A stretch of DNA of 64,000 nt from Cyanophora paradoxa CCMP329 (GCA_004431415.1 QPMI01000143.1:179045-243044); one strand, 5' to 3'; counted from the stretch's first letter, positions 43,824 to 64,000 are shown. The notes: generated by a model from the letters alone, not told the origin. Numbers and translations: made by a program.

Positions 43824-44258
43824 TCGCTTACTTAATTCATTTGAACATGGCCTAATTATAAAGCTTTCTTTTTCGGAATTCGCCAGGTGATCAGATGTTT
43901 GAACCCACATGGGATATCGACAGTAACGATGTCGTTTTCCCCGTGATCATGAATGTGTCTTCTCTGAACCCGGGACCCGCGGCGCGTGTTGTATACGCAT
44001 GGACCTCACACCCGGGCAATTCCGCTTCGCTCCATAGCCCCCGATTCCATGCGTTTCAAGTGTATACCTCCAGCGTTTCATTAGTTATTTCACCATATAC
44101 GTCTACCCCGCCGATCCAGCTACGTCTGTCGGCCTTTTCCCTAGGTCAGAGCCTAGCAATAGCTCATGTCTATTTAGGACAGTGCTGTGAAGAAGAATAG
44201 ACGAAGAGGAGCGCTGCCCCCATGAGCGCGGTCTGCAGAGCAACGAGAAAGAATAGTC

Positions 44259-44399
44259 TAGGCGATATAGATGAGTACGATGAAGCTAACAGAGGAAGCA
44301 CGTTTAGGTTAATTTTAGGCGAAATGATGAGAACATTGAAGCAACCAGAGGAAAAGCGTTTAGCTCTATCTAGGCGATAATGATGAGTACATTGAAGCA
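44259..44399 (+). repeat. ~2.5 degenerate tandem repeats of ~56 bp, probably sub-terminal
   Basis: TAGGCGA..(T)GATGAGwAC..TGAAGC units start at 44259, 44316 and 44371. Confidence 0.8.
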
Positions 44400-44515
44400 C
44401 TTCGTGTCCCAAGAGCGCTCTGGTGCGGCCTCTGGAGGTGTGTCGATGACTTTATCTTTGTTTTAATTGTTTTAATTCGGAGGGTCAAGTTCACGAGAAA
44501 ACTTTGCGGACGCCG

Positions 44516-44621
44516 TGACGTGATGCTGTGACGTGGCGAGAAAACGGCGAGATACGTGACACACAAAAGATTGGCGCTGATAGTGCGCTGATAGCGCGCA
44601 GATAGCTTGCACTACTATAAA
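44516..44621 (+). promoter_or_regulatory. Putative Pol II-type promoter of pPolB
   Basis: TGACGT at 44516 and 44529, reverse CCAAT (ATTGG) at ~44570, three GCGCwGATAG repeats, and TATAAA at 44616, ~150 bp before the ATG. Confidence 0.45.
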
Positions 44622-44767
44622 TGCATTTGCGTACGCGTTTACACCGCCACCTTGCAGTTAGTTGCATGGCTTAAAGGTTTCTCGCATTCATACTAGTATT
44701 CAGAGATTGTCTGCGATTTAATACCAAAAAGTTTTCGGCCATCCAATATTGTAGAGACCTATTCATA

Positions 44768-47700
44768 ATGGACAGGAACAATCTGAGAGCTGAAATTCGG
44801 AGCCTTGCGCAGGAGCTACACACACTTAGATACATTAATGGAACATATTTGAATACACTGATGCGACTAGCAGACCCACAGAGGGGAACCCACACACAAA
44901 ATCTTCGAGCTAATCTATCAACATTGCTTAGACTTAGACAGACGAACCGGCCGCAGCGCCCTTTGTACCAGTCATGGATAACAAGTCATTTTGAGAACGA
45001 ACGCAATGCTCGAATTGAAGCCACGCGAGAGTTTGATGAAATTGTAGAGTATGGGATCTCGAATTTATTTCGCGAGACAGGTCGAGGTGATACTGTGTTA
45101 AATTATACTCACTATGCATATCCGGGGATGTTATTTACCAAGGATATTTTGGATATTGATCCGACTCCAATACCTGAGCGGGTTAAAGAGATCACGATTG
45201 AGTTTCTGAGAGAGCTGCGAATTCCAGAGAAAATAGGATCCAGCGTTCTAATTCGGTTTCATTTCGATAACTTTAGCATGTATCGCACTCAACTAGTAAC
45301 AATCGAAGAGGGCACAATGCAGTCGCTCTTGTCAAATCTGGCTGAAAAGATGGAACAATGGATGCTAGCGCAGCAGCCATATGAAGACAACGACCTTTGG
45401 CCAGTAGTGAAAATAGAGGTGCTCATTGCAGAGAACGCTGCAGGCGCACTTGGAAACGTACCGAAACTCCCATTCAATGGCAAAGCCCTGACCATGAATA
45501 AGATCTACTGTCCGATATCACCAGAAGACAACTGTGTGCTTGAGTGTTTTGAATATGTGAAGCTAAACCCTGGAAGAAAAAGCCTTGATCGAATTTACAA
45601 GCAACTTCAGAGACTGGACTACGGAGGGATTAGAACACAGCTAGGACTGCGGCGAGGAATGATATCAGTTGATTTGCCAACGATTAAAAAGCTGAGCGCT
45701 TTTTACAGAATAGACACGAGTGTTTTTGAGTTTTCGCAAGGAAAATTTAAGCCGCTTTTTGCAACCGATCTAGGATTTGAAAAGCGTGCTCACCTTTGTA
45801 TTGTCGAGGCGCACTGCTACCTGATTAAGGATAAAAGAACAACTGAAATGGAGAAGTGCAGTGCCTGCGGGAAAATGCAGTTCGAACTGGAAAGACACAA
45901 GCTAACCTGTCAGTTTTGTGCTAGATGTCGTTGCGCCTACAATCCAATTGAAGATCACACAAACAAATGCGTTGTCGCCATCAGAAACAAAGGTGTTATT
46001 GGAAGAAAGATTACCCCTTGCGAAAAGGAGAGTGAATTTACAGCGATGGATAGCGTGATAGGGGCTGACTTTGAAACATTTCCTTGTGATGGCAAGACCC
46101 ACGTTCCATATGCTGTTGACACAGACATAATTTCCAAGGGCGAAATTGTAGGAACCAAGATGTTTTACGGTCCTGAAACATTAAATAAATTCATGCTATG
46201 GCTGGATGGTTGGACAGAGAAGACCACAGTAGTATTTTACAACGGTGCGGGGTTTGATCTGATATTCATATACCGATGGCTGATTGAGAATAGGCCAGAC
46301 AGCCAGGTGAACGTCATGCGTTCCTCGGGAAAGATTAAGAGCATGAAATGGAAGACGACAGCAGGAGGAGAGTTGACGAGTTTTGACCCATGCCTACATA
46401 TTCAAGGTTCACTAAAACAGGCTGGAAAGGACTACGGCTGCACGACGATCAAAGGAGACTTTGACCATCGCAAGATCAAGACGTGGGCAGACGTTGAGAC
46501 ACACAAGGAGGAATGGGGAGAATATCTAAGAGCCGATGTGCGATCAATGACGGAGTTATACATGAAATATTCGAGTACGAGCTTTGAGCTATTTGGAATA
46601 AATGTGAATTCCAAACAAACACTTACAGCCTCATCAATGGCGTTTCAGATTTACCGGCAGCTGATGAAGACAGAGCTGCAACTTCCAAAATACAGCGAAG
46701 ATCAGATTTTTCGCAGAGCAATTTACGGAGGTCGCTGTTTACCATTCAAACGCAAGTTTGTCTCGAAGGGTCCAGATGATTACTTGGTAGATCTGGATGT
46801 GGTCTCTCTATATCCGACCGCGATGTACTTTAACCAGTTTCCTACAGGTAAATTTAAGCTAATCAATGAACCGGAGGCTTTGGAGCGTTTTAGAAAGTTT
46901 ATGCTTAGCAGAAAAATGGAGCAACTGTTCATTGCGAGCATCAGTGCGAAAATTCCTCAAGATCTTGTGCTTTCTCCGCTCCCTCGTCACGAGTCGAATT
47001 TGGGCTGGTCGAACCTGAAACCGATCGAGCGCGAGATGTATACATCGGTTGATATCTACAGGGCGATAGCGCTTGGGGTCGAAATAACAGAGGTTCATGA
47101 GGTGTATTTATTTGAAGGAAAGGAGAGAATGTTTAAAGATTACATCGAGAAGTTATACTGTATGAAAGCACGTTCAAGGAAGGGCGCAGCTCAATACGCA
47201 ACAGCAAAGATTCAATTAAATGGTCTTTACGGAAAATTTGCCCAGAGACCTGTGATCGAAACAACAGAGCTAGTTTCTAATTACCGCCGATTTAAGGAGC
47301 TACAGCGGACATCTACGATTACAGACATCGAAATTGAGAGTGAAACACGGATGTATGTGACATATGAAGTACCTGAGAGCAAACGTGATGCTTGTGTGTC
47401 GAAGCCATGTTTTATTGGAGCATTTATTCTGTCCTACAGTCGCGAGATAATGGACAGGTTCCTAGTAAAAATGAACTCTTATAAAGATATCGAAGCCATG
47501 CCGTTTTACACAGACACAGACTCGCTTGTGGTGCACAGAAAATTTGCAGAGCTGGTGACTGATTGCATGAAGCGGCCTTACTCTGTGGAGGGGATGTCAG
47601 AAGAGGAGGCAAACAGGGCGATATGCGAGAACGAGCTGGGAAAACTAGATTACGATATCCAGGGGCACATCGTGGAGGCGTATTTCGTTGGACCCAAGGT

Positions 47701-48094
47701 GTACTGTTGTCGGTACGTGAAAGCGAACGGTGAATCGGACGTGCATGTGCGTGCCAAAGGAATACCAAAAAGCTGGATCGAGGAGAACTGGCTTTCGAGT
47801 GATCCGGAGATGAGGAAGGGGCACCTCGAGTCTCGGGTTGCTTTGGAAGCGTTCAAGCAAATGCTTGAGAGCCGGTATCAGCCGGAGTGCAAAATAGAGT
47901 CTAAACTATCTCGTGTCTTCAAACCGAATGGAAAGCAACGCGAGGAGGGGATAGGTTTTAGTTCAATCATTCAGATTCCATTCAGCAGAGTATTAAATAA
48001 GACGGAATACACAAAGCGAAAGATAATTTCGGATGACTATTACAGCACAGTTCCTCATGAGTACATCAGCCAAAATTCAGGAGGTATACTATGA
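44768..48094 (+). CDS. Protein-primed family B DNA polymerase (pPolB) with long N-terminal extension
   Basis: Exo motifs ADFET, YNGAGFD and YLRADV; YGGRC; DVVSLYPTAM; KIQLNGLYGKF; YTDTDS; GPKVY; RAKGI. Confidence 0.97.
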   Translation: MDRNNLRAEIRSLAQELHTLRYINGTYLNTLMRLADPQRGTHTQNLRANLSTLLRLRQTNRPQRPLYQSWITSHFENERNARIEATREFDEIVEYGISNLFRETGRGDTVLNYTHYAYPGMLFTKDILDIDPTPIPERVKEITIEFLRELRIPEKIGSSVLIRFHFDNFSMYRTQLVTIEEGTMQSLLSNLAEKMEQWMLAQQPYEDNDLWPVVKIEVLIAENAAGALGNVPKLPFNGKALTMNKIYCPISPEDNCVLECFEYVKLNPGRKSLDRIYKQLQRLDYGGIRTQLGLRRGMISVDLPTIKKLSAFYRIDTSVFEFSQGKFKPLFATDLGFEKRAHLCIVEAHCYLIKDKRTTEMEKCSACGKMQFELERHKLTCQFCARCRCAYNPIEDHTNKCVVAIRNKGVIGRKITPCEKESEFTAMDSVIGADFETFPCDGKTHVPYAVDTDIISKGEIVGTKMFYGPETLNKFMLWLDGWTEKTTVVFYNGAGFDLIFIYRWLIENRPDSQVNVMRSSGKIKSMKWKTTAGGELTSFDPCLHIQGSLKQAGKDYGCTTIKGDFDHRKIKTWADVETHKEEWGEYLRADVRSMTELYMKYSSTSFELFGINVNSKQTLTASSMAFQIYRQLMKTELQLPKYSEDQIFRRAIYGGRCLPFKRKFVSKGPDDYLVDLDVVSLYPTAMYFNQFPTGKFKLINEPEALERFRKFMLSRKMEQLFIASISAKIPQDLVLSPLPRHESNLGWSNLKPIEREMYTSVDIYRAIALGVEITEVHEVYLFEGKERMFKDYIEKLYCMKARSRKGAAQYATAKIQLNGLYGKFAQRPVIETTELVSNYRRFKELQRTSTITDIEIESETRMYVTYEVPESKRDACVSKPCFIGAFILSYSREIMDRFLVKMNSYKDIEAMPFYTDTDSLVVHRKFAELVTDCMKRPYSVEGMSEEEANRAICENELGKLDYDIQGHIVEAYFVGPKVYCCRYVKANGESDVHVRAKGIPKSWIEENWLSSDPEMRKGHLESRVALEAFKQMLESRYQPECKIESKLSRVFKPNGKQREEGIGFSSIIQIPFSRVLNKTEYTKRKIISDDYYSTVPHEYISQNSGGIL

Positions 48095-49193
48095 TCCAGA
48101 AACAGGGCTTCAGTCGGCCACACGTATTGCAAAGAAGTTGAAAATACCAGTTTCCAGGGTTAGAGAAGTGCTGGAGAAATTATCGACAGCGCAAAGATTT
48201 GCGAGGCCGCAGAAAGAGAAACCATTCACAAGTATAACATACGACAAAGCAGAGAAATACTACGAAGTGGATCTAATCGACGTGACTCCATACGCCAAAA
48301 CAAACCGCGGCATTCACTTTATAATGAACGCAGTGGATGTAGTGACTCGGAAAGCCTACAGCATTCCAATGAAGAACAAGAGCGAAAGTACACTCCTTTC
48401 AACACTACGGAAACTCATAGATAGTTTTCCAGCCAAGCCGGATATTATTCAGACAGATCAGGAGTTTAAAGCTTCAGCTAGTAGTTTGTTAGAAGCTGAG
48501 GGAATTAAGCACAATGCTGTGGAAGCGCATCGACCACAAGCAAACGGCAAAATAGAAAGATTTAATGGAACTTTGAAGCGAATTATTGCACGGTATATGG
48601 AGGCATATGACACGGATAGGTACATCGACAAGCTGCCCGCATTTGTGCGTAATTATAATTCGTCAGAGCATAGGTCAATTGGTACATCGCCAAACGCTGC
48701 AGCAGAGAATCCGAAGGAAACTATTGCACGCAACGACTACCAGAGAGAAGTGTACGAGCAGCAACACTACCTGAAGGAGGACGAATTTAAAGTAGGCGAT
48801 CGCGTGCGGGTGCAGCTAGAGAAAAAACGTTTCGACAAATCTTCAAAGCCGACGTATTCAAAAGAAATCTATACGATTATGGAGATAGGTGGCTTTGGAC
48901 CGCTGCTCAAATTTACGCTTTCGGGCTACAACAAAGCGGTGAACTACCAGCAACTTTTAAAGGTCCCAGTAGATTCAGAGGAACGTCGTGCGGGAAATGC
49001 AGCACAGCGGGCGCAGCAGCGCAGAAAGAGGGAGCTAAATCTGATGCGAGAGAACTTAGATCGAGTGGACATAGAAAAAAATAAGAGGCTGCTTCGCCTT
49101 CAAAAGCAACTTGCGACAGCTGGAACTGACAAGTTAAATCCTGGTGGAATATTAGAAAGAACAAAGACCAGAAGGTACGTCAAAGAGCTATAA
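48057..49193 (+). CDS. Retroviral-type (rve) DDE integrase of Polinton type
   Basis: YYDPETG N-terminus; EVDLID, QTDQEF and NGKIERFNGTLK (D,D,E); YNSSEHRSIGTSP; FKVGDRVRV SH3-like domain. No chromodomain is evident. Overlaps the pPolB 3' end. Confidence 0.95.
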   Translation: MSTSAKIQEVYYDPETGLQSATRIAKKLKIPVSRVREVLEKLSTAQRFARPQKEKPFTSITYDKAEKYYEVDLIDVTPYAKTNRGIHFIMNAVDVVTRKAYSIPMKNKSESTLLSTLRKLIDSFPAKPDIIQTDQEFKASASSLLEAEGIKHNAVEAHRPQANGKIERFNGTLKRIIARYMEAYDTDRYIDKLPAFVRNYNSSEHRSIGTSPNAAAENPKETIARNDYQREVYEQQHYLKEDEFKVGDRVRVQLEKKRFDKSSKPTYSKEIYTIMEIGGFGPLLKFTLSGYNKAVNYQQLLKVPVDSEERRAGNAAQRAQQRRKRELNLMRENLDRVDIEKNKRLLRLQKQLATAGTDKLNPGGILERTKTRRYVKEL

Positions 49194-49455
49194 CAACACA
49201 TTGTTGGAGAGACTCTAGCAGGGCTAACTTTTCGTAAATTCGACTGCGATAGCGACGATTTGCCTCTAGATGATTCTCGCTGTTGTTCTGCTGGTACCTC
49301 GAGCTGGCTTCAATATGACGTTGACGATAATCAGGATCTTCATTGTAACGACGGCGATGGTATTCTGCACGCTTTGCTTTCCTTGCAGCAGCGATTTCAG
49401 GGGTTACAACAATTGGTTTGCGACCACGCTGTTTAGTTGATGATTCAACATCCAT
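49180..49455 (-). CDS. Small basic helical viral protein, possibly DNA-binding
   Basis: RGRKP motif and R/Y-rich helix; fills the gene-dense layout. Confidence 0.6.
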   Translation of the reverse strand: MDVESSTKQRGRKPIVVTPEIAAARKAKRAEYHRRRYNEDPDYRQRHIEASSRYQQNNSENHLEANRRYRSRIYEKLALLESLQQCVVIAL

Positions 49456-49564
49456 TTCTTTGGTTTTCTCGTCACAAACAATGTGCGAAATCTTTTTATG
49501 GCATAAATCGCAGGTTTGTGTTGCGTTAAAAATCGAACATAAAATCCGAGATATAATTCAAAGA

Positions 49565-49819
49565 ATGGTCGCAGGAACAATTCGATTTGGGAAGTACCGC
49601 GGTGAAACTCATTTGAAGGTTGTTTTAACCGATCCGAAATATGCCGAATGGCTTATGTCTTGGGAACATCTCCGTGAATACGATAAAAGGGAATTGCAGC
49701 GCGCTTTTGAGATATGTCAATTAGAAGAACCAGCGGTAGTTCAGGAAAGGATTGATCGAGCAAAACAGCAAAGAAGACCTACTGTGGAGGATCTAACAGA
49801 TTTGCCTGATTTCGATTAG
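49565..49819 (+). CDS. Small protein with DUF3820/ExoX-C-terminal-like motif
   Basis: IRFGKYRGE....DPKYAEWL motif. Confidence 0.65.
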   Translation: MVAGTIRFGKYRGETHLKVVLTDPKYAEWLMSWEHLREYDKRELQRAFEICQLEEPAVVQERIDRAKQQRRPTVEDLTDLPDFD

Positions 49820-49878
49820 GCAATGCGTTTGCAAGTCTTAAAGAAATATCAATCCGTTATTGTAAAAAGTGAAAGACA

Positions 49879-50505
49879 ATGGGAGGACACAACTATTTCG
49901 GCACACTTGCTCCAAGAGGTCTCTTTAGCACTTCAGATTATAGGGAGGCCACAGAGTCTAGTGATGAGGAAGTTTGTGAGGTGCGCAGACGTGTTCGCTC
50001 TATTCTTTGCAGAGATTGCAATGATGTCTGTGAAAATGAAGCAATGTGGAATCGAAATAACAACAAGTGTCACGAATGTTTTGAAAAGCAGTTTGACAAG
50101 ATTATAACCTCATATGCAGGGGAAACGAGAGAGAAGCAGGAATACGGATGCTTTGATAAGATTTCAATTGTCCGAGAAGCACGTTTGAAGTGTGCGAAGT
50201 GCAATGAATTTACGAGTTGGATACCTCAGCAAGAGCTGATGCAATACAGTGAAAAAGTAGTTTGGAACTGTAACCAGTGCAATCCATCTACGCCGTGGCT
50301 GAAGTTCAGATTTATCGTGTGGTATTGGGTGCCAAATCTAAAGAAAATCATGAAAAATGGAAGGCATGTCTGGGTATTAGCGAAAATGGATGAAATGAAA
50401 CACAAATGTGGATGTTCCAAGTGTGTGGATGCAAATACTGTTGATCGATGTGTCACAGACGAATCCTTCTCCCACCCATCGCATTCTTCAGTTGCGACCC
50501 AGTAG
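49879..50505 (+). CDS. Cys-rich (multi-CxxC) viral hypothetical protein
   Basis: CRDC, CHEC, CAKC, CNQC and CGCSKC pairs. Confidence 0.6.
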   Translation: MGGHNYFGTLAPRGLFSTSDYREATESSDEEVCEVRRRVRSILCRDCNDVCENEAMWNRNNNKCHECFEKQFDKIITSYAGETREKQEYGCFDKISIVREARLKCAKCNEFTSWIPQQELMQYSEKVVWNCNQCNPSTPWLKFRFIVWYWVPNLKKIMKNGRHVWVLAKMDEMKHKCGCSKCVDANTVDRCVTDESFSHPSHSSVATQ

Positions 50506-51082
50506 CATTTGGTTCGAAAACATTTGGAGAAGCAGTTTTAACCTCGGCAGAGTCAAGCGATTGCTCGGCTTTAGCTTTTTCGTTTTTCAAATAGCGTAAA
50601 TCTGGTACGTCCATAGGTCTGTGCTTAAACATCTCGCTTCGCAACATCTCGCGGATCTTAGCTCTTTCTTGCTTGTCTTTTACATACGATTCGATATTAG
50701 CTGATCGAGCCTCGAGATCTCGCAATTTAGCTGTTAGTTCCTCGATCTGACTCTTTGATACTGTTGCTGTCTTGATTTTTGGCCCTGAATAACGTGGTTC
50801 AGACGCCATTGCTTGGATAATTCTAGCAGCATCATCATCAATATCGGACTGCATTTCAGTAACAGTTTTAGCCTGGCTTTGTCGATCGTCAATCGCACTT
50901 GCGTTAGCTGCTGCCGACGCAATTGTTTTCGCTACGGGTGCGTTTAGTTTGGGGTTGCTTGCAAGCTCCCCGCTAGGATCAGCAACAGCTGCGCCTTCAG
51001 TCGACCCACTTTCAACTAGTGGTTCAACAACATTGACCTTGCGTCTTTCACGATATCCCTTCTTAGGAATCCCTTTTGCCAT
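50453..51082 (-). CDS. Viral hypothetical protein with coiled coil
   Basis: 209-aa ORF directly downstream of the ATPase, with an AT-rich motif before the ATG. Confidence 0.65.
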   Translation of the reverse strand: MAKGIPKKGYRERRKVNVVEPLVESGSTEGAAVADPSGELASNPKLNAPVAKTIASAAANASAIDDRQSQAKTVTEMQSDIDDDAARIIQAMASEPRYSGPKIKTATVSKSQIEELTAKLRDLEARSANIESYVKDKQERAKIREMLRSEMFKHRPMDVPDLRYLKNEKAKAEQSLDSAEVKTASPNVFEPNATGSQLKNAMGGRRIRL

Positions 51083-51091
51083 CTTATTTTA

Positions 51092-51895
51092 TTAAGATAA
51101 TATTTTAAAACGCCTTTTTTTAGAGATAACAGGCAATTCTTTTTTAGACTCTTCTTCATTCTTAAGCCCGAAGGGCAAGGAGCCCTCCTTGGGCGACGCC
51201 CACTTTGTAAAACGAAAACTCTTATCTTCAACAGCTTTGTCGACGTACCAGGCCGTATCATACTTGGTCCCATCCAAAACTAAGCACTGATAATTGTGCG
51301 CCCAAGTCTCGAACAAGGCGATGAACTTATCCTTTGGTAGGTGTGAAAAGTCTCGATAAATTGCCTCCAGTTCAGTATGATTAGAGTAACTGAAGAAAAA
51401 ACAATAGTCAGAGTTCGATCTTATAGACTGACTCAAAGCAGTCAATTTTTGCGTCATTAGAATGGTACTGATATTAAAATGACGACCTTGTGTAAAAAGG
51501 CGATTTACAGCCTTGCTATTTCGCAGATCAACAGTTTCAGACGCAGCAACGAGATCATCCAAGACTAGCAATATCTGCGGCGCCGAAGGCAAGGAGCCTT
51601 CTTTGTCTCCGCCTTTCTTTTTGTTTTCAATCAAATTTCGCTGTGAATCAATGATTTCTGCAACAATAGATGGCTGAAAATCGTCGTAAAGCTCTTTAGT
51701 TATTGCAGAATACTCGCCGTTGAATTTGGTGGCGGTAAACACAACAACTCTATTGATCTTTGGATATAACAGTCTAAGTAAATGCTTTGTGCAATAGAAA
51801 GACTTGCCGCTATTGGACTTCGATATAAATAGGGCTTTGAATGGTACCCTCATATCGCTAGGCTGGAACTGTGCGAGCTCGTCTGACCCATCCAT
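51092..51895 (-). CDS. A32-like FtsK/HerA genome-packaging ATPase
   Basis: Walker A SKSNSGKS, Walker B ILLVLDD, and LFTQGRHFNISTILMTQ. Confidence 0.95.
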   Translation of the reverse strand: MDGSDELAQFQPSDMRVPFKALFISKSNSGKSFYCTKHLLRLLYPKINRVVVFTATKFNGEYSAITKELYDDFQPSIVAEIIDSQRNLIENKKKGGDKEGSLPSAPQILLVLDDLVAASETVDLRNSKAVNRLFTQGRHFNISTILMTQKLTALSQSIRSNSDYCFFFSYSNHTELEAIYRDFSHLPKDKFIALFETWAHNYQCLVLDGTKYDTAWYVDKAVEDKSFRFTKWASPKEGSLPFGLKNEEESKKELPVISKKRRFKILS

Positions 51896-51915
51896 CAAAA
51901 AGATAGTCGGTGAAA

Positions 51916-53304
51916 TTAGAGGTTCACCTTACGAAGACCCGCAGCATCAACAATTAGTACAGTGTGAAGGAGAGCTCGAACCTGGACGTAAATCTTGTTG
52001 TTAGCATCGTAAGCAGCAGGGTTCATGATATTCAGGAAGCAGCTGCTGGAGTTCGTCAGATCTACGAAACCAGTTTGAGCAGCATTTCGAATCGATTTGT
52101 CTCCACTAATGCAAAATGGCAAACCCGTCAGCACGTATCTATTCAAAGGAGCGTCGAGATTGGAGCACTTGAAGACATCAGCGATGAGTTCGGCACCTTG
52201 CAGGAGAGGAACGGGCTCGTTTGAATAAAGCCGCTGGCCATTTAATTCGCAGGAAATAGTGATATCGCGAGCATTAGCCTCGGTTTTGAGGACACTGTGT
52301 TTTCCATCAGTTTGGTTCATGTTTGGCTGTTTGCGAATGCTAACGAACAGGCCGTAGCAGAGTCCACTGATTTGAGACAGATTAATCCGGGTGGGCGCAC
52401 CAGCACCAGCATAAGTAATTGAATCAGCATCAACCCAGCCGACATCGGTAGCGGGAATTGCGATTCCAGACGTTTTGACTTTCTCAATCACCTGGGCAAA
52501 AGTGGCCTCATCAACGTTGATACAATGAGCAATAATCTTTGGATTAGAAAGCTCTGGATTGGCAGGGGTGACACTGAGAACATTGGGAGTTATATTCTGG
52601 CCGATGTTTGCAGGGGAAGCAGCGGCAGCTCCAACACTACCAAGGCCATCTTCTTTAGTGGCATCACCGCCGATGGCATATTCCGTTACAAACCTACCAC
52701 CATAGCTGGTTTCAACAAAGCCCTGGGCACGATCACGGAACCAGACCTCGACAGACAGCTCGCCAGAAAGAGCACCAATTGGGAGCACAGAACCCTCCCA
52801 GGGACAGGGGATTTTTACACTGAAAATACCTCCAGCACGATTCGTCCCCTGAGGTGGTGTTCCATGAAGCCAGCCACCTGACCGGTATTTCTTTTTGAGC
52901 TGAGCATCATCATTGTAAATCAGTGCGCTGTGAACAAGCCAGTCCTCGGGGACAATGTAGCTGTAGGAAGCATATTTGATTTCAATTCGCTTGACAAGAG
53001 CACCAACCGATCGCAAATAACCAGTGCGAACCAGGTCAGTGTCACCAGTAAATGCTGTCAGCTCGGGAAGGGTAAACTGGAGTTCGAGCCCCTGAAGGAA
53101 ATTGTATCGGGGCAGGAAATAAGTAACCCTCTTTCCGAAGCAGTCTCCATAGTCATTGCTTGGGTTGACAACAACACGAACAGGCTTGGTTTGGCTCGTT
53201 AGACCCAACATAAGCTCATTGTTCATAAAGAAGTCCTTCGCTTCCTGCGGAGTTGTCAGGAGCTCTTTGAGGCCAAGACGCTGCAAATTCTGAGTAACAT
53301 CCAT
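51916..53304 (-). CDS. Major capsid protein (double jelly-roll)
   Basis: ~460 aa, beta-rich, located between the ATPase and penton. FGKRVTYFLPR..FLQGLELQFTLPEL and the C-terminal IYVQVRALLHTVLIV resemble DJR MCP termini. Confidence 0.8.
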   Translation of the reverse strand: MDVTQNLQRLGLKELLTTPQEAKDFFMNNELMLGLTSQTKPVRVVVNPSNDYGDCFGKRVTYFLPRYNFLQGLELQFTLPELTAFTGDTDLVRTGYLRSVGALVKRIEIKYASYSYIVPEDWLVHSALIYNDDAQLKKKYRSGGWLHGTPPQGTNRAGGIFSVKIPCPWEGSVLPIGALSGELSVEVWFRDRAQGFVETSYGGRFVTEYAIGGDATKEDGLGSVGAAAASPANIGQNITPNVLSVTPANPELSNPKIIAHCINVDEATFAQVIEKVKTSGIAIPATDVGWVDADSITYAGAGAPTRINLSQISGLCYGLFVSIRKQPNMNQTDGKHSVLKTEANARDITISCELNGQRLYSNEPVPLLQGAELIADVFKCSNLDAPLNRYVLTGLPFCISGDKSIRNAAQTGFVDLTNSSSCFLNIMNPAAYDANNKIYVQVRALLHTVLIVDAAGLRKVNL

Positions 53305-53345
53305 CGAATTATATAATTGCAGTGAAAGAAAATAATTCTGGCGAC

Positions 53346-54301
53346 TCAGTTTGACGAATTGATCCAAGGATATGTCTTTGACCTTTTCTGGAGCTGAAGT
53401 TTTGCAAGTTCGTAAACAACATCACCATTGGGTTCGTCAGGACCATAACGAATTTCGAGAATAAATGACACAGGAGCTCCATTTAAATCAGCGATTCGCT
53501 GCATAAAATCGTATATCTCAATAGTCACAGAGTACAGGTCCAGCTTTGAATAAACATACTTATACAAAGGAGTTGCTTCAGTTGAATCATAGTAGGCTGT
53601 TTCGCCTGGACGGAGGGCGCTGGGAATGCTGAGCTTTGAGAAAAAGCCAGGAATTGAAGTATTGGGCATACTGACAAGGTCACCAATTTCAGGAATGCGA
53701 AGTAGCACATGATCATCGGGAGTGACATCGGGTTCATAAGCGCCTTCTATATATTGAATATCGACAGTTAAAGCCTTAGACCGAATCGGTAGAATTGATC
53801 GCAAGCCTAGCAGCTTTGCAGTTCGCTGAGCCCTAGCAACAGCCTGGTAGTTTCTGATTTCCCGCCCACCCAGGTTCGGTGCCAACATCAGAGCAATAAA
53901 GAACTCGAAGCTAGCTGTGAACCTATTGATTTAACTGCTGAATTATACGTGCACGTGATACCAGTCCCCGTCAACCTTTCGTTTATCTTTGTCACAAGCG
54001 AGGTGACGTCGTAATTTCCAGGTGGAATTGTAATGTTATTCCAGGCTCCAAAACCTGGCTGAGGTGGGTCTGGTCCCTCATTTGCAGGATCATATTTGCA
54101 CCAATATATATACGTGTCAAACACTAAATCCTCTGCTGGATCGAGTGCATCAACTGTGCTCATTGTGTTGGGGATCTCAGCAGATACCAGGCGCACGGCT
54201 TTTACATCCTGATAAACTTTAGGCAGTCTTACTTTAAATTTTGAGGTGGATGTCAGCTCATCCGCTTGGTGGCTTGCAATGCAGACGTAGTCCGTCGGCA
54301 T
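53346..54301 (-). CDS. Minor capsid protein (penton) paralogue 1; one frameshift near 53920-53930
   Basis: FKVRLPKVYQDVKAVRLVSAEIPN..ITIPPGNY..KLLGL..DHVLLRI..FFSKL..VTIEIYD..DLNGAPVSFILEI, split over two ORFs. Confidence 0.8.
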
Positions 54302-54328
54302 CTTTTTTATATCAGTTAGAGAATAAAA

Positions 54329-55246
54329 ATGGTCGAAGACAAGCATCGACGCTGCGCCAGGCTCAGCTTTGACAGTAGAGACAGAAGGCCAATCGATTCA
54401 GAGGCAAACTTTGTGCTAGAAATAAATGAACCTATAATCAATCCAGTTGCTGTTCGACTTACCCAGTGTGAGTTCGCAAACAGCCTTTACACGAGCATTA
54501 GAGATGAGTATCTTTCGATCACCTTCCCCAACATTTGGACGGAAAATCTGGCAGTTTTTGAGCCTGGTATAATTACTACTGCAAATATGGGCGAAACAGA
54601 TCTTTACAACTTTGGCCTATCGTTTAAGTTTGAACTGGGGGGAATCGTAATAGCATATTTCAAATTGTTTCGGGACCCAGAGACACTGAAGATGTCTGCC
54701 TATTGCAACCGTTCCTGCACAGTAACCTGCCAGTTCAAAGCTCTATCGAATCTGCTAGGGCTGAACCGAAATGAGCCCCTCCAGCTGTCTCCTATCGTGT
54801 TTGAAGGAGGACAAAGATCAGTAACTGCAGCTGAGCGATATCTCGAGGTTGCTGGCATTCCAGTAACACCTTCACACCCTGAATATGGCGTGGATTTCAC
54901 CGAAAGAATGCGGAGTGAGCCACTTGGTTATGCTGTCGAATTTCCAAAGATAATTGACATGAACAGCGACCAGTATCTATTCCTAGTCTGTGAAGAGCTT
55001 CGACCATTTGCTTCAAAGCTTCGCCGTGGGGCCAAAACAATGTGCAACTACGGGCTTGCTCGAATTCAAATGAGTCAGGACGTTGGCAAATTCGTTTATA
55101 TAAATCAGGATCATCAAAGCGAATGGATCCCCATCGAAGAGCGTCTTGTGCTGACTTCCTTGCGACTGCGCATTGTAGACAGAGATGGTGATGATGTATT
55201 ACTGAATGGATTGCCATGGTCTGGGGAGCTCCAGTTCATCACTTAG
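54329..55246 (+). CDS. Minor capsid protein (penton) paralogue 2
   Basis: FDSRDR..VAVRLTQCEFANSLY..NLLGL..DQYLFL..LARIQM..LRLRIVDRDG..LNGLPWSGELQF; same motif order as paralogue 1. Confidence 0.8.
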   Translation: MVEDKHRRCARLSFDSRDRRPIDSEANFVLEINEPIINPVAVRLTQCEFANSLYTSIRDEYLSITFPNIWTENLAVFEPGIITTANMGETDLYNFGLSFKFELGGIVIAYFKLFRDPETLKMSAYCNRSCTVTCQFKALSNLLGLNRNEPLQLSPIVFEGGQRSVTAAERYLEVAGIPVTPSHPEYGVDFTERMRSEPLGYAVEFPKIIDMNSDQYLFLVCEELRPFASKLRRGAKTMCNYGLARIQMSQDVGKFVYINQDHQSEWIPIEERLVLTSLRLRIVDRDGDDVLLNGLPWSGELQFIT

Positions 55247-55376: not shown

Positions 55377-55709
55377 ATGTCGCAGTTGATGCCCATAGCT
55401 CAGATTGAAAAGTACTTACCGTTGATGCGGGACAAAAAAGTATCACTTGTTGCGATTGGAGATAAGCCAAGCACACAAACAAACCTAGGTTTTCTGCAAG
55501 CTTACCGCCGATTTGGTCCTGACGGAATCAAAAAGGAGCTCGCAACCAGAAACACAACTTGGTATCAGCGAAGAGAGAATTACATTAAGAGGCGACTGGG
55601 AGGGCGTAATGGAGCACCATTTTGGGAGAAAGATAAATCTGGCAGAACTATTCCAACACGTCTTGGACTCTCTCTGATTTCCTGGGCATTCATGCCGCCG
55701 CCTAATTAA
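55377..55709 (+). CDS. Small viral hypothetical protein
   Basis: GFLQAY..WYQRRENYIKRR..PTRLGLSLISWAF, a pattern I associate from memory with small large-DNA-virus proteins; TATATAAAAA precedes the ATG. Confidence 0.65.
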   Translation: MSQLMPIAQIEKYLPLMRDKKVSLVAIGDKPSTQTNLGFLQAYRRFGPDGIKKELATRNTTWYQRRENYIKRRLGGRNGAPFWEKDKSGRTIPTRLGLSLISWAFMPPPN

Positions 55710-57186
55710 TGTAACGTCCCCGGAAATCAAGCCGGAATGCATTCACATTTATAAATTCGTTTGTTATAATTTGCACATAGTTATATACCTGTGGGGTGAA
55801 CAAATGCGAGTCACTATGCATTAGATCGAAGCCTGCCATTGTTGGGTTCGCAGCAAGCACATTTGCTAGGACCGTATTTTCAAAAAGCCTCCCATCTTGG
55901 ACATATCCTAAGTTGGTCAGAATGCTGAAATTAAATAGGACTCCGGCAGCAAATGCTGGCCCATACATAATGATTTGATGTAGCTCAAAAGGCTTGGGAA
56001 ACTCGACTTTAATCCAGGGATTAGGTAAAGTGCCCCCTTGGAACCCTGTTGAGTTGGGTCGCACATGAGAAGGTGGGTGCAATTCCTCAAAGTCGTTGCT
56101 TGTAATGTTTGCATCTGGAATTATAAACCAGTTGACATCAAATGGCGGCTCAACTGTTAAAGTAGACGATATGATTAGTCTCTCATCGTTCAGTAGGTCA
56201 TAGTTCGCCAGTAGAAAGCTGCAGAGTGCATTTATTTTAGCATTTATTTCGATTTGTTTCAGCCATAAATCTGTCGTGGAAATCAAATAAGAAATATTCG
56301 ATGGGGAGGCATCGTCAAGCTTGCTCATGACTGCAGCTGGTAGCGGAACACTTAAACGCCAGTATCTTGTTAGATTCCTATCCGCATCAACTGGAAGCAG
56401 TTCCTGCATTTGAAAGTGCGATTCCAGCTCGCTACCAGCCATTAGCATAGAAATGATTGGGCTGCCTGAGAGGGATAGGATCCAGCCCAGTGCGCCCCAG
56501 CCTGACGTCTCCGAATTCGAAAAGCCTGCAGTCAATTGCTCACTGGCTTGGACTTCACCACAGCTAATGCTCACAAGAACAATTGGATCTTCTGCATCGT
56601 AAATTTTACTGGCGTGGCTGAGTGCAGCAACTGAGGGATTATTCAAACAGGCAATTGCCCCGTCAACAAGGTTTTTGTCCCCTAGAACCTTCGGTGGAAA
56701 GAATGTAGGCGCTGCAGAAGATGCTCTCACTGCATCACGAATCAGCGTGCTTGAATATGGCCCATCCTTCGTAAAAACTACGGGCTGCATCCGAACTGTA
56801 TCAAACGCTGTTATTAATACATCTTTTGTCGATTCTGCAATTGTGTAGTCCTGGGCAACGTCTGTGAGCACCGACTCCAGAGGGTTTGCATCATAGCGGC
56901 TGCCTGAGAGCAAGCTTGTCAGTGATCTTGGATTTGCAAATATTGTTGGCAGGTTCGTTTGATATAGACTCAAGATATCACCTGCAGAATATCGGTAAGC
57001 GAGAACAGAGCCTGGAGTTGATGGAATAGCCAAACCGGCCGCTATTATCGCCCCTGTTGAGGTGCCTGCAAAGAAATCAAACAGCTGTGGTATTGCTTTC
57101 CCAGTAATCGCCTCAATCCGCTGTAGAATTCGGGCAATGACTATGCCACGAGCACCTCCACCTGATAGTGAGAGAATGACCTTCAT
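55702..57186 (-). CDS. Patatin-like phospholipase with C-terminal discoidin/F5-8-like beta domain
   Basis: LSLSGGGARG, GTSTG nucleophile elbow, ASSAAPTFF, VDGA; C-terminal PWIKVEFPKPFELHQI..FRLDFRG. Confidence 0.9.
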   Translation of the reverse strand: MKVILSLSGGGARGIVIARILQRIEAITGKAIPQLFDFFAGTSTGAIIAAGLAIPSTPGSVLAYRYSAGDILSLYQTNLPTIFANPRSLTSLLSGSRYDANPLESVLTDVAQDYTIAESTKDVLITAFDTVRMQPVVFTKDGPYSSTLIRDAVRASSAAPTFFPPKVLGDKNLVDGAIACLNNPSVAALSHASKIYDAEDPIVLVSISCGEVQASEQLTAGFSNSETSGWGALGWILSLSGSPIISMLMAGSELESHFQMQELLPVDADRNLTRYWRLSVPLPAAVMSKLDDASPSNISYLISTTDLWLKQIEINAKINALCSFLLANYDLLNDERLIISSTLTVEPPFDVNWFIIPDANITSNDFEELHPPSHVRPNSTGFQGGTLPNPWIKVEFPKPFELHQIIMYGPAFAAGVLFNFSILTNLGYVQDGRLFENTVLANVLAANPTMAGFDLMHSDSHLFTPQVYNYVQIITNEFINVNAFRLDFRGRYIN

Positions 57187-57210
57187 TTTTAAAAGGGGGC
57201 TTATATAAAA

Positions 57211-60200: not shown

Positions 60201-62708
60201 ATTACAATTAGCTGTTACAGATTTTGTTACAGATACCGATTTAACGGCGGCACTTGCTAATTATCTACCTCTAACAGGTGGAACTGTAACAGGAACTGTG
60301 AATGCTACCACTTTACAAATTGGCGGAACCACAATACCAAAAGGTTACGATTTCGACCAATTAGATGTGGTTTCATCAGATAGAAGCGCAAATAATTGGA
60401 ATTTGAATTGGGTCGCAAGAACAGGACAAACAGGATGTTACACAACACCACATAAATGATGAAGATTGCAGTGGTTGTTGGATGAGGTGGACAGTTCCAG
60501 AAGGTATGAAATCGTTTTACATTCAGCATATGCCGTGGGCGAATTGTCGATATTATGATATCTACGGGCAAACAGCCAATAATTACCAGCATTTCTTAAA
60601 ACGTATAAATGCATATCAGGGAATCCAGGCAGTTAATCAAGATGGACACATAATACTGTTTTGTTTGCCTCAATCAATTGTGAGTTTTACACAAAGATAT
60701 ACATTCAAGGTCGAAAAGGTCGCATTCATCTTACGGGGGTTTTCGGTTGGAGTAGACAGAGAGCAACCGACAATGAATTGGGCATGATCTCTTGGGATAA
60801 TATATTTAGCAAACCATCATTTTACTCAGCCGCAGACCTTCCAGCAACAGCAAAATGGACAGTGGACAATTGGTTAAAATCAACAGACAATATAGAAAGA
60901 TTTTGGTTTGGAAATGGTAATACGACATATATTCGTGGTTATGGAAACTCTGATAATGTTTGTGTGGAGTTTCGCAATGGCTCCGATTTAGCATTATTAA
61001 AATCATATAATAATGGTAATTTATGGGTAGGAGGAACTTTAAATGTTACTACAAGTGTAAGCGCACCATCAATTACAGGAACTACTATAAATGCAACAAC
61101 CATAGATGTTGCAACATTAAAAAGAAATGGTTATGACGTTCCAAAATGTTACGCTTTTGATGACACAGTAGCAGGTGGCGCTTATCAGTTATTGAGTGGA
61201 ACTTGGATAACCGGTGGTGGGTGGTATTGGGATCCAGGATATAATTATGGAAGTTATGCACACAACAGTGAATACGATGATATAGCAGCTCCTACAACTA
61301 CTTGGATTCAGTATACAATACCCACAGCATTGGTTAATGGGACAGCATTCCTTACACATTTACCGTGGACCAATGGTCGTTATTTTGAGATTTGGGGAGT
61401 CCGTAGTAATGGAGCAATTGTATTTATTACGAGAGTTAATAACTATCAGCCACATGACGGCAGTAGCGACGGTTACCACAATGGAGTTAATAATGTCCCA
61501 ATCTTCCTTGCCGGTCGATTTACTCACATTCGTATTTATCCAAAAGTCGGAAGAGTTCACATTATGGGAATTGGTTTTACACACGATCGCGCACATAGTA
61601 GTTCTTATGGTGGTTCAACCGGTTTTATTCATTGGAATAATGTTTATAGTAAACCTACTATTCCTACATCCTATCTGTCGTTAACAGATGTCACTAATTC
61701 AATCGGAAACATTACCAGTTTTGATGTGGTTTCAGGATGGAATAGTGCAACTGTTTATTTTGTAGGATCGTGGTCGACAGGTTGGAAACCTACAACAGAC
61801 AATCCAGTAGAAGGATTTTATAGCACCATTACTGATGATCAAACCAGCAGTGACTACATGCAAATGGAAGTTCCCAGTGGAATGCGAACATGTCATGTCC
61901 AATATTTCTGTTGGACAAATTGCAGATATTTCGATATTGGAGGTTATCGAAACAATAGATGGAATCACATAATGCGAGTAAATACCTATCAGAATGCAGG
62001 AAATACCTATGCTGATTCACTGTGGCATGAAGGTTTAATATGGACTTCCTTCTTTTGTGAGAATTTCACACATATTCGATTTGTTGCAAGAAAGGGAAGA
62101 TGTCACATTGGAATGATTGGATGGACAAAAGAAAAAGGAAGAACAGCACCAGCAAATGGGATGATTTCATGGAGATAACGTTTTTAGTAAACCAAATTGC
62201 GCAACTTGGCCGTTGATACTTGGATTACTTCAAGTGAAGGTAATGGGAGAGTTTATTTTGGTTCATCAACTACATACATTAAAGGTTATGGTTACGAAAT
62301 GATCCATTTAGAAATGGAGTTGATATAACAATGCAAGCTTTTATAATGATGGTAACGCTTACTTTTGGGGATGGCTTACACAAGGAAGTGATAGAAGATA
62401 CAAAACCGACATTAAAAATATAACCGGCGCCCTTTCAGCAATCGAGAAATTACAGGGTGTGAGTTATAAAAAGATTGGTGATGGAAAAACAAAAAGTTAA
62501 TTTAGGTCTGATTGCGCAAGATGTCGAAAAAGTCATACCAGAAGTAGTAGGTAAAAATCACGAAAACTATCTAACCCTTGCATACACAGGTTTAATTCCA
62601 GTTCTCATAGAAGCCGTTAAAGAATTATCTAAGAAATGCAAAGATTTAACACAAACATGTGAAAATCTCCAAAGTCAAATAGACCAATGGCGCAGTCAGG
62701 CTGCTTAA
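57211..62708 (+). CDS. Phage-style tail-fibre protein with C-terminal peptidase S74 intramolecular chaperone (multiple frameshifts)
   Basis: HxHxWxxIxxKP and HTHTKAQITDF repeats, YLPLTGGTVTG, duplicated modules, and SDRRYKTDI..GLIAQDVEKVIPEVV..Y..LIPVLIEAVKEL. Confidence 0.8.
58200..58440 (+). repeat. Acidic coding tandem repeat (EEYLPDGxDPQEYEYxQ-like, ~4 units of ~63-66 bp)
   Basis: Recurrent GAGTATTTACCxGAyGGTTT units. Confidence 0.85.
59275..59597 (+). repeat. Nine 36-bp coding repeats (HxHxKxxITDFx), phage-tail-repeat-like
   Basis: Counted directly; unit 1 lacks one A. Confidence 0.9.
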
Positions 62709-62739
62709 CTGCCGTAATAAAAATGTCACAGTATAATAA

Positions 62740-63060
62740 ATGGCGACGTATCCACTTGGTGGAACTCCTTCTACTTCTTCTGAGCCTGTCGCTCTTGCTT
62801 TCGATACTATCAAACTTGTAGCCGCACTACAAACTGTCGAAAAAACAATACAACAAACTAACAAACTGTCACCGGTTGTTCATGAATATAAAAACCTCTT
62901 GGTTAATGTCCTTGCGCAATCGGCTTATGGTGATCCTGTTGCTAAATACTCTGAGTGCGATAGCAATATCAAAGCAATGACAGCCAATATTCAAGCTCTT
63001 TCTGTTGCTTACAAGCCCTTGGAGCGAGCCCTTGGAGCGAATCTAATCACTTTGGCTTGA
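62740..63060 (+). CDS. Viral hypothetical protein
   Basis: 106-aa ORF preceded by TATAATAA. Confidence 0.65.
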   Translation: MATYPLGGTPSTSSEPVALAFDTIKLVAALQTVEKTIQQTNKLSPVVHEYKNLLVNVLAQSAYGDPVAKYSECDSNIKAMTANIQALSVAYKPLERALGANLITLA

Positions 63061-63116
63061 TGGTAGTTTGGCTTGTCTGCCGACTTTTTTTTCTTTCCTT
63101 CTTAGTAAAATAAGCA

Positions 63117-63971
63117 ATGGGCGAATATAATCGGGTTCAGTTACCTATCTATTCACTTGGATCCCCTGCAAATCATTTTCGCCAACACGAAGTCAATGAT
63201 GAGGTTCGCGGTCTGGAATCCACTGAACGACCTAATTCTAACGGAAATGCTTTCGATAAAAATTCGATGATTCGAGTTAAAGAACTTCGAGCTGACAAGA
63301 ACTCAGGTGTAGTTAAAACCACTCGACTACTCGTAAGCAATGCAAATTTCTTCCAGCCAATAAATGGAGGCCCTGATGCTTACAGTGTTGATCTGAAAGC
63401 CCTCGATTTCGACAAGAATTCTGCTGCTGCTACAATTCGTTCAGGTGGAGCTTTTATTGGCGGTGGATGTCGTGTATCCGGTCCACTCTCTTCTTCTGTT
63501 TCGTTCAATGATGTTCCTGACACTCTTGAACAAAATGTTGAAAATCCACAACGAATTCGGTTCTATACACCTGTTGCACAGCAACCTTTTCTTCACTTCT
63601 ATGTTGCATCATCTGTCTCTCTTGAAAATTCAGAGTTGGTTTCCATTACAGGAACTGATCGTGTGAGAAGGAATATTCCTCTTCCCACAGCAATGCTTTC
63701 GATGTGCAGAGCAAACAACAATCAACCAGGTCACAATTACCTATTCTTTGTTCAAGCATCAAATCATTTCGGTCGGGGATATTGTGTATATAACAATTTG
63801 ACATTTACTTATGATTTGTTTGTCACTGAGGTAGGAGTTTACAATACTATGATTATGGGACTGAGAACAGATATAGCAGCTGTTTCGGCACTTCGTGGTG
63901 TGAATATTGCTGATATCTTTACAACCGGATTTTACCAGGAGCCAGATGTTATTGACGATCCTACTCCGTAA
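63117..63971 (+). CDS. Viral hypothetical protein, possibly structural
   Basis: 284-aa beta-rich ORF with an AT-rich leader. Confidence 0.65.
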   Translation: MGEYNRVQLPIYSLGSPANHFRQHEVNDEVRGLESTERPNSNGNAFDKNSMIRVKELRADKNSGVVKTTRLLVSNANFFQPINGGPDAYSVDLKALDFDKNSAAATIRSGGAFIGGGCRVSGPLSSSVSFNDVPDTLEQNVENPQRIRFYTPVAQQPFLHFYVASSVSLENSELVSITGTDRVRRNIPLPTAMLSMCRANNNQPGHNYLFFVQASNHFGRGYCVYNNLTFTYDLFVTEVGVYNTMIMGLRTDIAAVSALRGVNIADIFTTGFYQEPDVIDDPTP

Positions 63972-64000
63972 AATTTAGATGCAGGAATGGCTTATCATCT

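What the first reader, a model, noticed from the sequence alone, without database searches (positions are those of the whole stretch)
44200..64000. Near-intact endogenous Polinton-like virus with an unusual gene set
It combines the Maverick replication pair (pPolB + rve integrase) with an MCP whose termini look nucleocytovirus-like, two pentons, a patatin lipase and a bacteriophage-style fibre. No adenain/Ulp1 protease or helicase is recognisable in the ~20 kb visible. Core genes are uninterrupted, so it may be inducible. It may represent an undescribed clade of protist preplasmiviruses.
Basis: partly seen in the sequence, partly recalled or inferred. Interest (0 to 1): 0.85.

Follow-up and report, generated by a model that had tools for sequence, protein, structure and literature searches.

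The report
Algal endogenous Polinton-like virus copy
This is a real, roughly 20-kb-plus DNA virus genome sitting in the chromosome of an alga that is likely Cyanophora paradoxa; it is one of many related copies that earlier surveys already catalogued but, in the papers I searched, never named or placed on the virus tree.

Summary
Real element, largely known. A 43% GC, 94% coding block starts near 43,990 (not 44,200) in 70% GC host DNA and runs off the window. It encodes pPolB (with a likely terminal-protein/vOTU protease N-terminus), rve integrase, A32 ATPase, a double-jelly-roll MCP, two likely pentons, patatin and an S74 fibre. It is not fully intact as assembled: one penton is frameshifted and the fibre needs at least 13 frame changes; other copies carry indels at several of these sites, so assembly error is likely but unproven. 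The MCP is 65% identical to a Cyanophora paradoxa capsid already listed in Bellas 2023 (366 MCPs in that genome, HHpred hit to an iridovirus MCP). A 2025 table of 156 glaucophyte elements already shows this gene set: no maturation protease (0/156), rve 85, lipase 89, pPolB 49. So the 'unusual gene set' is the family norm. What stays open: this MCP type is missed by standard PLV profiles (2/156), has no relatives in IMG/VR or JGI scans, and is unnamed and unplaced. New member of a known kind; moderate interest.

The parts
43990..44767 (.). Left terminal non-coding region, likely the left terminal inverted repeat; begins at about 43,987-43,991 (a TG dinucleotide at 43,990 is the likeliest start)
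   Evidence: Single-copy contig 42773-44016 ends here in 4 of 4 runs and depth jumps more than tenfold from the bin 43944-44074 on; short internal direct repeats; right copy is outside the window, so TIR and TSD are inferred
44768..48094 (+). [quoted passage not shown]
   Evidence: PF03175 3.7e-59; Exo and Pol motifs intact; G226, N255, C256 in 19 of 20 and H349 in 20 of 20 aligned pPolBs; phi29 Z 25.6; domain reading follows 10.1101/2024.03.18.585575
48033..49193 (+). Retroviral-type (rve, DDE) integrase, 386 aa
   Evidence: PF13683 2e-8, PF00665 4.4e-8; IS481-like 1.7e-23; D80, D142, E175
49180..49455 (-). Small basic ORF, 91 aa, no family
49481..49819 (+). 112-aa ORF with an FGKY (ExoX-like C-terminal) motif; a similar ORF follows pPolB in 2 of 4 related free PLV contigs
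   Evidence: PF20600 7.7e-4; BLAST to L002 and L003 neighbours 3e-4 and 5e-5
49879..50505 (+). 208-aa Cys-rich (CxxC) ORF, no family
50453..51082 (-). 209-aa coiled-coil-like ORF, no family
51092..51895 (-). A32-like genome-packaging ATPase, 267 aa
   Evidence: PF04665 1.5e-9; Walker A SKSNSGKS, Walker B LVLDD, RH motif; 27% to the ATPase of PLV contig L003
51916..53304 (-). Double-jelly-roll major capsid protein, 462 aa
   Evidence: 65% to P0001, a Cyanophora paradoxa protein listed as an MCP in PMC10120064 Table S2; fold matches
53346..54346 (-). Likely penton 1 (about 333 codons), split in this assembly by one frameshift near 53,920
   Evidence: DUF5901 E 0.012 on the N-terminal half; frames; other copies carry a one-base indel there in 3 of 3 DNA runs
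54329..55246 (+). Likely penton 2, 305 aa, divergently transcribed from penton 1
   Evidence: No library hit; assignment from recalled penton-like motifs and a weak match to penton 1 (E 0.29)
55377..55709 (+). 110-aa accessory ORF, absent from some copies
   Evidence: A contig of run X2 joins 55224 to 55711
55702..57186 (-). Patatin-like phospholipase, 494 aa, with a C-terminal extension that may be a discoidin-type lectin
   Evidence: PF01734 1.9e-26; GGGARG, GTSTG, DGA motifs; patatin 1oxw 6e-22; extension has no Pfam hit, discoidin reading borrowed from PMC12220804
57211..62708 (+). Likely one long fibre gene (about 1,830 codons) with acidic and PTR repeats, a duplicated domain, three related distal domains and a C-terminal S74 chaperone; at least 13 frame changes in this assembly
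   Evidence: indels in other copies at 8 listed places inside it
62740..63060 (+). 106-aa ORF, no family
63117..63971 (+). 284-aa ORF, no family; last complete gene before the window ends

Best explanation
This is one copy of a multi-copy endogenous Polinton-like virus family inserted in the nuclear DNA of an alga that is likely Cyanophora paradoxa, and it would spread by excision or copying, protein-primed replication, packaging into an icosahedral particle and rve-mediated reintegration. Shown: the low-GC gene block, its left junction with single-copy host DNA, many diverged copies in the same organism, and intact catalytic motifs in pPolB, integrase, ATPase and patatin. Inferred: the ends are terminal inverted repeats with a short target-site duplication; the pPolB N-terminal domain primes at both ends and is cut off by the adjacent vOTU protease just after conserved G226, so no helicase is needed (strand displacement as in phi29); the ATPase pumps DNA into an MCP shell whose vertices are built from two pentons; no maturation protease is used, as in most PLVs; the trimeric fibre, folded by its self-cleaving S74 chaperone, binds surface glycans and the patatin helps cross a membrane. 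With no RNA polymerase it must use host Pol II or a co-infecting giant virus; I favour giant-virus-triggered, virophage-like activation (about 55%) by analogy only. The frameshifts are more likely consensus errors from collapsing similar copies (about 65%) than decay.
For: GC 43% vs 70% and 94% coding. Family hits and motifs. MCP fold. vOTU Cys/His conservation against the domain plan in 10.1101/2024.03.18.585575. Multi-copy: 4,635, 2,397 and 2,440 contigs of three runs lie on the 20 kb, spread from under 90% to over 99% identity, with cover in 30 of 30 bins, while the flank is one 1,244-nt contig with 0 differences in 4 of 4 runs. 20 of 24 listed runs, 16 studies, all one organism, hold the stretch. 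Nearest MCP is from C. paradoxa, whose genome has 366 such MCPs. Family-wide gene counts match. Frameshifts cluster in the fibre (13 of 14 breaks in 35% of the coding length tested, P 1.2e-5 if uniform), other copies have indels at these places, and PMC10120064 describes this artefact for EVE assemblies.
Against: The right end, TIR pair and TSD are outside the window. The flank contig reaches only 27-30 letters into the element, under the tool's 31-letter bridging rule. Only 54-59% of sampled words of 44200-54199 are in any run, so this copy's exact letters are unconfirmed; contigs drop rare variants, so real copy-specific decay cannot be excluded. Neither penton has a firm hit. The vOTU and terminal-protein folds were not matched to solved structures. 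Host species is inferred from a 65% homologue; 9 of 9 window proteins looked up were not in the collection as exact sequences. No evidence here for particles, excision or helper dependence.
Confidence: 0.85

Rival explanations
1. A decaying, defective copy: the penton-1 and fibre frameshifts are real, so this copy can at most be mobilised in trans by intact siblings.
For: At least 14 breaks in two structural genes; only 54-59% of words found in runs; in runs X1 and X6 fewer than half of the depth at 53,921 shows the indel.
Against: Neutral decay should also hit pPolB, rve, ATPase, MCP, penton 2 and patatin (about 9 kb, no break; P 1.2e-5); in run X2 all depth at 53,921 shows the indel; flanking host DNA is error-free; the artefact is documented for such repeats.
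Confidence: 0.3
2. A member of the NCLDV-related PLV continuum (Mriyavirus, Zora, Zephyr, Alpensee groups), i.e. a small relative of giant viruses with a known glaucophyte host.
For: All top structural matches are NCLDV MCPs (Z 17.9-12.4) ahead of PRD1 11.7, mavirus 11.4, Sputnik 10.5; BFVD ranks 1-24 that carry names are NCLDV, adintovirus rank 31; DUF5901 on penton 1; 15 of 156 glaucophyte elements hit the NCLDV penton profile against 0 in the 18 other host groups, and only 2 of 156 hit PLV MCP profiles; rve is common in Zora and VC218.
Against: Model pLDDT 55, TM-scores 0.45-0.5; no PLV or Polinton MCP appears among the listed solved structures, so the ranking cannot separate groups; PMC10120064 says PLV MCPs in general resemble NCLDV capsids; the family's ATPases hit the PLV profile 107 times and the NCLDV profile once; no HUH or VLTF hit.
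Confidence: 0.3
3. Assembly chimera or contaminant: a free virus or a collapsed repeat joined to host DNA by the assembler.
For: No listed contig spans the junction by 31 letters on both sides; many positions differ from all laid contigs.
Against: The unique flank contig runs into the repeat's first letters with 0 differences in 4 of 4 runs; 16 studies of one organism hold the element; endogenous copies are documented in C. paradoxa.
Confidence: 0.05

Closest known systems
Cyanophora paradoxa endogenous viral elements (QPMI01 EVEs; PMC10120064 Tables S2, S4; PMC12220804 Table S6)
   Same: MCP 65% identical to gene_47449 (tig00020904); family counts of 156 elements: A32 ATPase 139, lipase 89, rve 85, pPolB 49, S74 37, tyrosine recombinase 0, maturation protease 0
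   Different: This exact MCP is not in the protein collection; no AdoMet decarboxylase (66 of 156), HNH (40) or primase-helicase in the visible part; which of the two MCP clusters (272 or 94 copies) it joins was not determined
Polintoviricetes (Maverick-Polintons, adintoviruses, gosseviruses)
   Same: pPolB + rve pair, ATPase, MCP, penton, often a phospholipase; best BFVD match of the pPolB model is an adintovirus PolB
   Different: No adenain-type protease in 20 kb or in 156 siblings; MCP not close to adintovirus capsids; glaucophyte host
Aquintoviricetes and other protease-less PLVs (Gezel-14T, TsV, Trimcap)
   Same: Reduced morphogenetic module, phage-like S74 fibre, lipase, two pentons reported in Trimcap B; nearest pPolBs in IMG/VR lie on 13-18 kb PLV-like contigs
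   Different: Those contigs carry other MCP types and no rve match; tyrosine recombinase absent here
NCLDV-related small viruses (Mriyaviruses, Zora VC102, VC218, Zephyr, Alpensee; 10.64898/2026.06.19.733378)
   Same: NCLDV-like MCP fold, weak NCLDV-type penton hit, rve integrase, lipase, PLV-sized genome
   Different: No HUH endonuclease or VLTF2/3 detected; Mriya48 untested; glaucophytes not mentioned in that paper's main text
Mavirus and EMALEs (Virophaviricetes)
   Same: pPolB + rve, low-GC multi-copy insertions in a GC-rich protist (recalled)
   Different: MCP ranks below NCLDV capsids against mavirus (Z 11.4); no cysteine protease, no SF3 helicase; pPolB keeps its exonuclease motifs, which mavirus lacks

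Membership tests
Polinton-like viruses in the broad sense (Polisuviricotina) | Double-jelly-roll MCP | tested here: met
   65% to a published MCP
Polinton-like viruses in the broad sense (Polisuviricotina) | A32-like packaging ATPase | tested here: met
   PF04665 1.5e-9, motifs
Polinton-like viruses in the broad sense (Polisuviricotina) | Single-jelly-roll penton | tested here: inconclusive
   DUF5901 E 0.012 only; no fold made for either candidate
Polinton-like viruses in the broad sense (Polisuviricotina) | 15-45 kb unit with terminal inverted repeats and TSD | not testable with these tools
   At least 20,011 bp from about 43,990; right end outside the window and no genome held; no long inverted repeat inside the window
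Cyanophora paradoxa EVE MCP groups of PMC10120064 | MCP above the 25% identity clustering level with a listed member | tested here: met
   65% over the full length to P0001 = tig00020904, 456 aa, gene_47449
Polintoviricetes | pPolB and rve integrase | tested here: met
Polintoviricetes | Adenain-like capsid maturation protease | tested here: not met
   Visible 20 kb only: no Pfam C5/C48 hit, tblastn with a PLV adenain best E 0.21 and no motif in 106 open segments; 0 of 156 siblings. The unseen right part was not tested
Polintoviricetes | MCP and ATPase cluster with Mavpol or GKS1 groups | not testable with these tools
   No reference profile set held; adintovirus capsid only rank 31 in BFVD
Aquintoviricetes | Reduced morphogenetic module without protease | tested here: met
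   as above; definition from PMC12220804
Aquintoviricetes | MCP or ATPase clusters with Gezel/TsV-type viruses | tested here: inconclusive
   MCP profile A1 does not detect the capsids of four PLV contigs (best E 0.64); ATPase 27% to L003
Mriyaviricetes and NCLDV-related PLVs | NCLDV-like MCP | tested here: inconclusive
   Top fold matches are NCLDV but the model is low-confidence and PLV references are lacking
Mriyaviricetes and NCLDV-related PLVs | HUH endonuclease, VLTF2/3, Mriya48 | tested here: inconclusive
   No such Pfam hit among 26 ORFs; several ORFs unassigned; no Mriya48 profile held
Virophaviricetes | Virophage-type MCP plus conserved cysteine protease | tested here: not met
   Protease absent from visible part; mavirus and Sputnik MCPs score Z 11.4 and 10.5 against 17.9; 0 of 156 siblings hit the virophage MCP profile

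The most novel reading that the evidence does not exclude
The Cyanophora elements are an unnamed, glaucophyte-centred virus lineage with their own NCLDV-leaning capsid and twin-penton module, no maturation protease and exchangeable replication modules, belonging to the small-genome relatives of giant viruses; this copy is in truth intact and can be induced to make particles in a standard laboratory alga.
Probability: 0.25. Interest if true: 0.7.

Novelty: new member of a known kind. Interest (0 to 1): 0.4.

Why it matters
The element itself is one of hundreds of catalogued insertions (366 MCPs, an estimated 7% of the C. paradoxa genome), so it is not a discovery. Its value is as a well-resolved example of a capsid lineage that standard PLV profiles miss and that I found neither named nor placed. 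If it belongs with the NCLDV-related PLVs it would give that group, many of whose clusters have no known host, a culturable host in the earliest-branching algal lineage, where induction, particle structure and defence against giant viruses could be tested directly.

Tried and rejected
No whole genome is held for this window, so the right end, TIR pair, TSD and sibling copies could not be read. MCP against solved sequences: 0 meaningful hits among 9 at E up to 10. MCP relatives with context: none in IMG/VR (28 pattern matches, 0 confirmed; 17, 0 with P0011) or JGI metagenomes (371, 0; 162, 0). ATPase: 0 hits among 484 candidates and 0 of 19 in IMG/VR, so no ATPase tree was built. Of 9 MCP hits in the 1.84-billion set, 4 are true capsids (P0001, P0002, P0006, P0009) and I dropped 5 as low-complexity repeats after reading 2 of them. 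vOTU and terminal-protein folds were not listed in the whole-protein searches, which the polymerase domain filled; alignment A3 for the N-terminus was poor and not folded. Discoidin at the patatin C-terminus: no Pfam hit. No RNA holder listed; the one guessed-RNA run laid had 5 contigs on the element: no evidence either way on expression. The protein Atlas gave no answer. Earlier scan findings: none in 4 look-ups. Rejected: the 101-aa ORF 43895-44200 as a gene (it straddles the junction); the 266-aa gene at 43023-43823 as viral (single-copy, GC3 0.66 against 0.42-0.47); an LTR reading of the left end (multi-copy cover runs without a gap into pPolB, though not formally excluded); 'no protease at all' (vOTU present). 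Literature searches for a named Cyanophora or glaucophyte group: (listings) and text searches found none; bioRxiv supplements, the SI figures and Dataset S1 of PMC10120064, and subscription papers were not seen and could hold a name or placement.
Full report
What is there. The first 41 kb of the window are 70% GC eukaryotic DNA; from about 44.0 kb to the end the sequence is 43% GC and 94% covered by 15 tightly packed genes, the largest gap being 130 nt (fibre span counted as one gene). In order: pPolB (44768-48094, +), rve integrase (48033-49193, +), four small ORFs, A32 ATPase (51092-51895, -), MCP (51916-53304, -), two divergently arranged penton candidates (53346-54346, -; 54329-55246, +), a 110-aa ORF, patatin (55702-57186, -), a 5.5-kb fibre region (57211-62708, +) and two unassigned ORFs. 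Pfam supports pPolB (3.7e-59), rve (4.4e-8), A32 (1.5e-9), patatin (1.9e-26), PTR repeats (2.7e-5) and, below its cut-off, the S74 chaperone (2.7e-4); PHROGs gives tail-fibre hits to 1e-15 for the S74 piece. Catalytic motifs of all four enzymes are present.

Left end and junction. Logan contigs of four runs show one 1,244-nt contig, 42773-44016, with no difference from the window in 4 of 4 runs, at the same low depth as other flank contigs; from the bin 43944-44074 on, depth is more than tenfold higher and stays so into pPolB. The tool warns that depth is no copy number; I use it only as a single-copy against multi-copy contrast. With 31-letter words a unique contig must stop about 30 letters inside a repeat, which puts the end at 43,987 or, allowing for a few letters shared by chance among many ends, up to about 43,991; 43,990 starts with TG. 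This is inference: the overlap is under the tool's 31-letter bridging rule. The right end is outside the window and no genome is held, so TIR and TSD are untested.

Multi-copy family. 20 of 24 listed runs, from 16 studies and all labelled as one organism, hold 54-59% of the sampled words of 44200-54199. In three DNA runs 4,635, 2,397 and 2,440 contigs lie on the 20 kb, with identities from under 90% to over 99%, covering 30 of 30 bins. This is a diverged repeat family, not a lone insertion.

Intactness. pPolB, rve, ATPase, MCP, penton 2 and patatin are open. Penton 1 is split near 53,920, and the fibre needs at least 13 frame changes. Sibling copies have indels at 53,921 and at 8 listed places in the fibre (12 of 55 rows shown). 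Thirteen of 14 breaks in 35% of the tested coding length is far from uniform (P 1.2e-5). Polishing errors where similar copies are collapsed give such frameshifts (PMC10120064), and the fibre is the most variable part (many joints; distal GC3 0.26 against 0.42-0.47). I put 65% on artefact; contigs drop rare variants, so decay is not excluded.

MCP. No Pfam, PHROGs or NCBIfam hit. The only hit among near-length proteins is P0001, 65% identical, from Cyanophora paradoxa in EukProt, a glaucophyte. A full HMMER search adds a 39% Logan protein and two environmental capsids at 26-28% (full-length alignment 37, 25, 23%). The five-sequence model is weak (pLDDT 55) but is a double jelly roll: PBCV-1 Vp54 at 6e-14 and Z 17.9, with faustovirus 15.5, PRD1 11.7, mavirus 11.4, Sputnik 10.5; BFVD agrees. 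No PLV or Polinton capsid is among the listed solved chains, so this does not place the virus.

pPolB. The model matches phi29 polymerase (Z 25.6); nearest relatives are 25-32% identical metagenomic pPolBs (22 hits). In an alignment of 20 (19 of the 22 hits plus the query), G226, N255 and C256 are kept in 19 and H349 in 20, after an alpha/beta domain at about 136-222. This fits the terminal-protein plus vOTU plan of eukaryotic pPolBs, in which the protease is proposed to free the primer domain (10.1101/2024.03.18.585575, parts 2-3 of 5 read). So a protease is likely present, but not the capsid-maturation one: Pfam, a tblastn with a PLV adenain (best E 0.21) and a motif scan of 106 open segments found none, nor a second Walker A. 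Four IMG/VR contigs with related pPolBs are PLV-like but have other MCPs and no rve match, which points to module exchange.

How it likely works. Protein-primed, strand-displacing replication of a linear genome; rve integration; ATPase packaging into an MCP shell with two pentons; fibre binding and patatin-assisted entry; transcription by host Pol II or a helper giant virus. Gene identities are shown; every step of the cycle is inferred from related viruses, and nothing here shows activity.

What is already known. PMC10120064 (passages, parts 2-3 of 7, rows of supplement 2, which is cut) lists P0001 as gene_47449 with an HHpred hit to an iridovirus MCP at 98.47%, and counts 366 MCPs in C. paradoxa in two clusters (272, 94) under the heading 'Iterative HMM searches', without a group name; it also says Polinton and PLV MCPs resemble NCLDV capsids. 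PMC12220804 (passages; Table S6 read, columns counted by hand) gives for 156 glaucophyte elements: PLV MCP profile 2, NCLDV penton profile 15 (0 in the 18 other host groups), ATPase PLV profile 107 against NCLDV 1, nine protease profiles 0, pPolB 49, rve 85, tyrosine recombinase 0, lipase 89, S74 37, AdoMet decarboxylase 66; it calls S74 fibres ubiquitous and notes discoidin domains, some fused to patatin, in Rhizaria and glaucophyte PLVs. 10.64898/2026.06.19.733378 (parts 1-3 of 5) says gosseviruses are the only major PLV group with a core protease, reports double pentons, and defines NCLDV-related PLV clusters, some with rve; it does not mention Cyanophora. 10.64898/2026.10.13.758929 (passages) reports that pPolB pairs with DDE integrases independently of capsid type and uses a QPMI01 element as an example.

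What is left. I found no name or placement for the Cyanophora MCP groups (searches; supplements of preprints unseen), and no relatives with context in IMG/VR or JGI. MCP and penton lean towards NCLDVs, the ATPase towards PLVs. Verdict: real, new member of a known kind, interest 0.4; a 25% chance that it is an intact, inducible member of a distinct NCLDV-leaning glaucophyte lineage.

Noticed in passing
window 41645-41889 and 42604-42802: Two related short elements with 21-24 nt terminal inverted repeats and very high contig depth: likely a host MITE family.
   Followed up: partly
window 43023-43823: Single-copy, intronless 266-aa Cys-rich ORF with a signal-peptide-like start, no Pfam or NCBIfam hit; its stop lies about 165 nt from the virus end.
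   Followed up: partly
window 44668-50670 against 50671-57340: Summed contig depth over the capsid module is about 3-4.5 times that over pPolB-rve in three runs (worked out by hand). The tool says depth cannot rank genes, so this is only a hint, but it fits 49 of 156 siblings having pPolB.
   Followed up: partly
PMC12220804 Table S6 (not in the window): 66 of 156 glaucophyte elements carry an S-adenosylmethionine decarboxylase domain (PF02675), not discussed in that paper's main text; it may lie in the unseen right part of this element.
   Followed up: no
window 60450-62350: Three related distal fibre domains (26-35% identical to each other) with no family hit and low GC3 (0.26); candidate glycan-binding modules of separate origin.
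   Followed up: partly
window about 1900-4300 and 8400-10850: A host segment of about 2.4 kb is duplicated at about 6.5 kb spacing with 94-100% identity.
   Followed up: no
L002:14213-14662: An IMG/VR PLV-like contig with a related pPolB does carry an adenain-like protease (PF00770 3.9e-4), so this pPolB clade occurs with and without it.
   Followed up: partly
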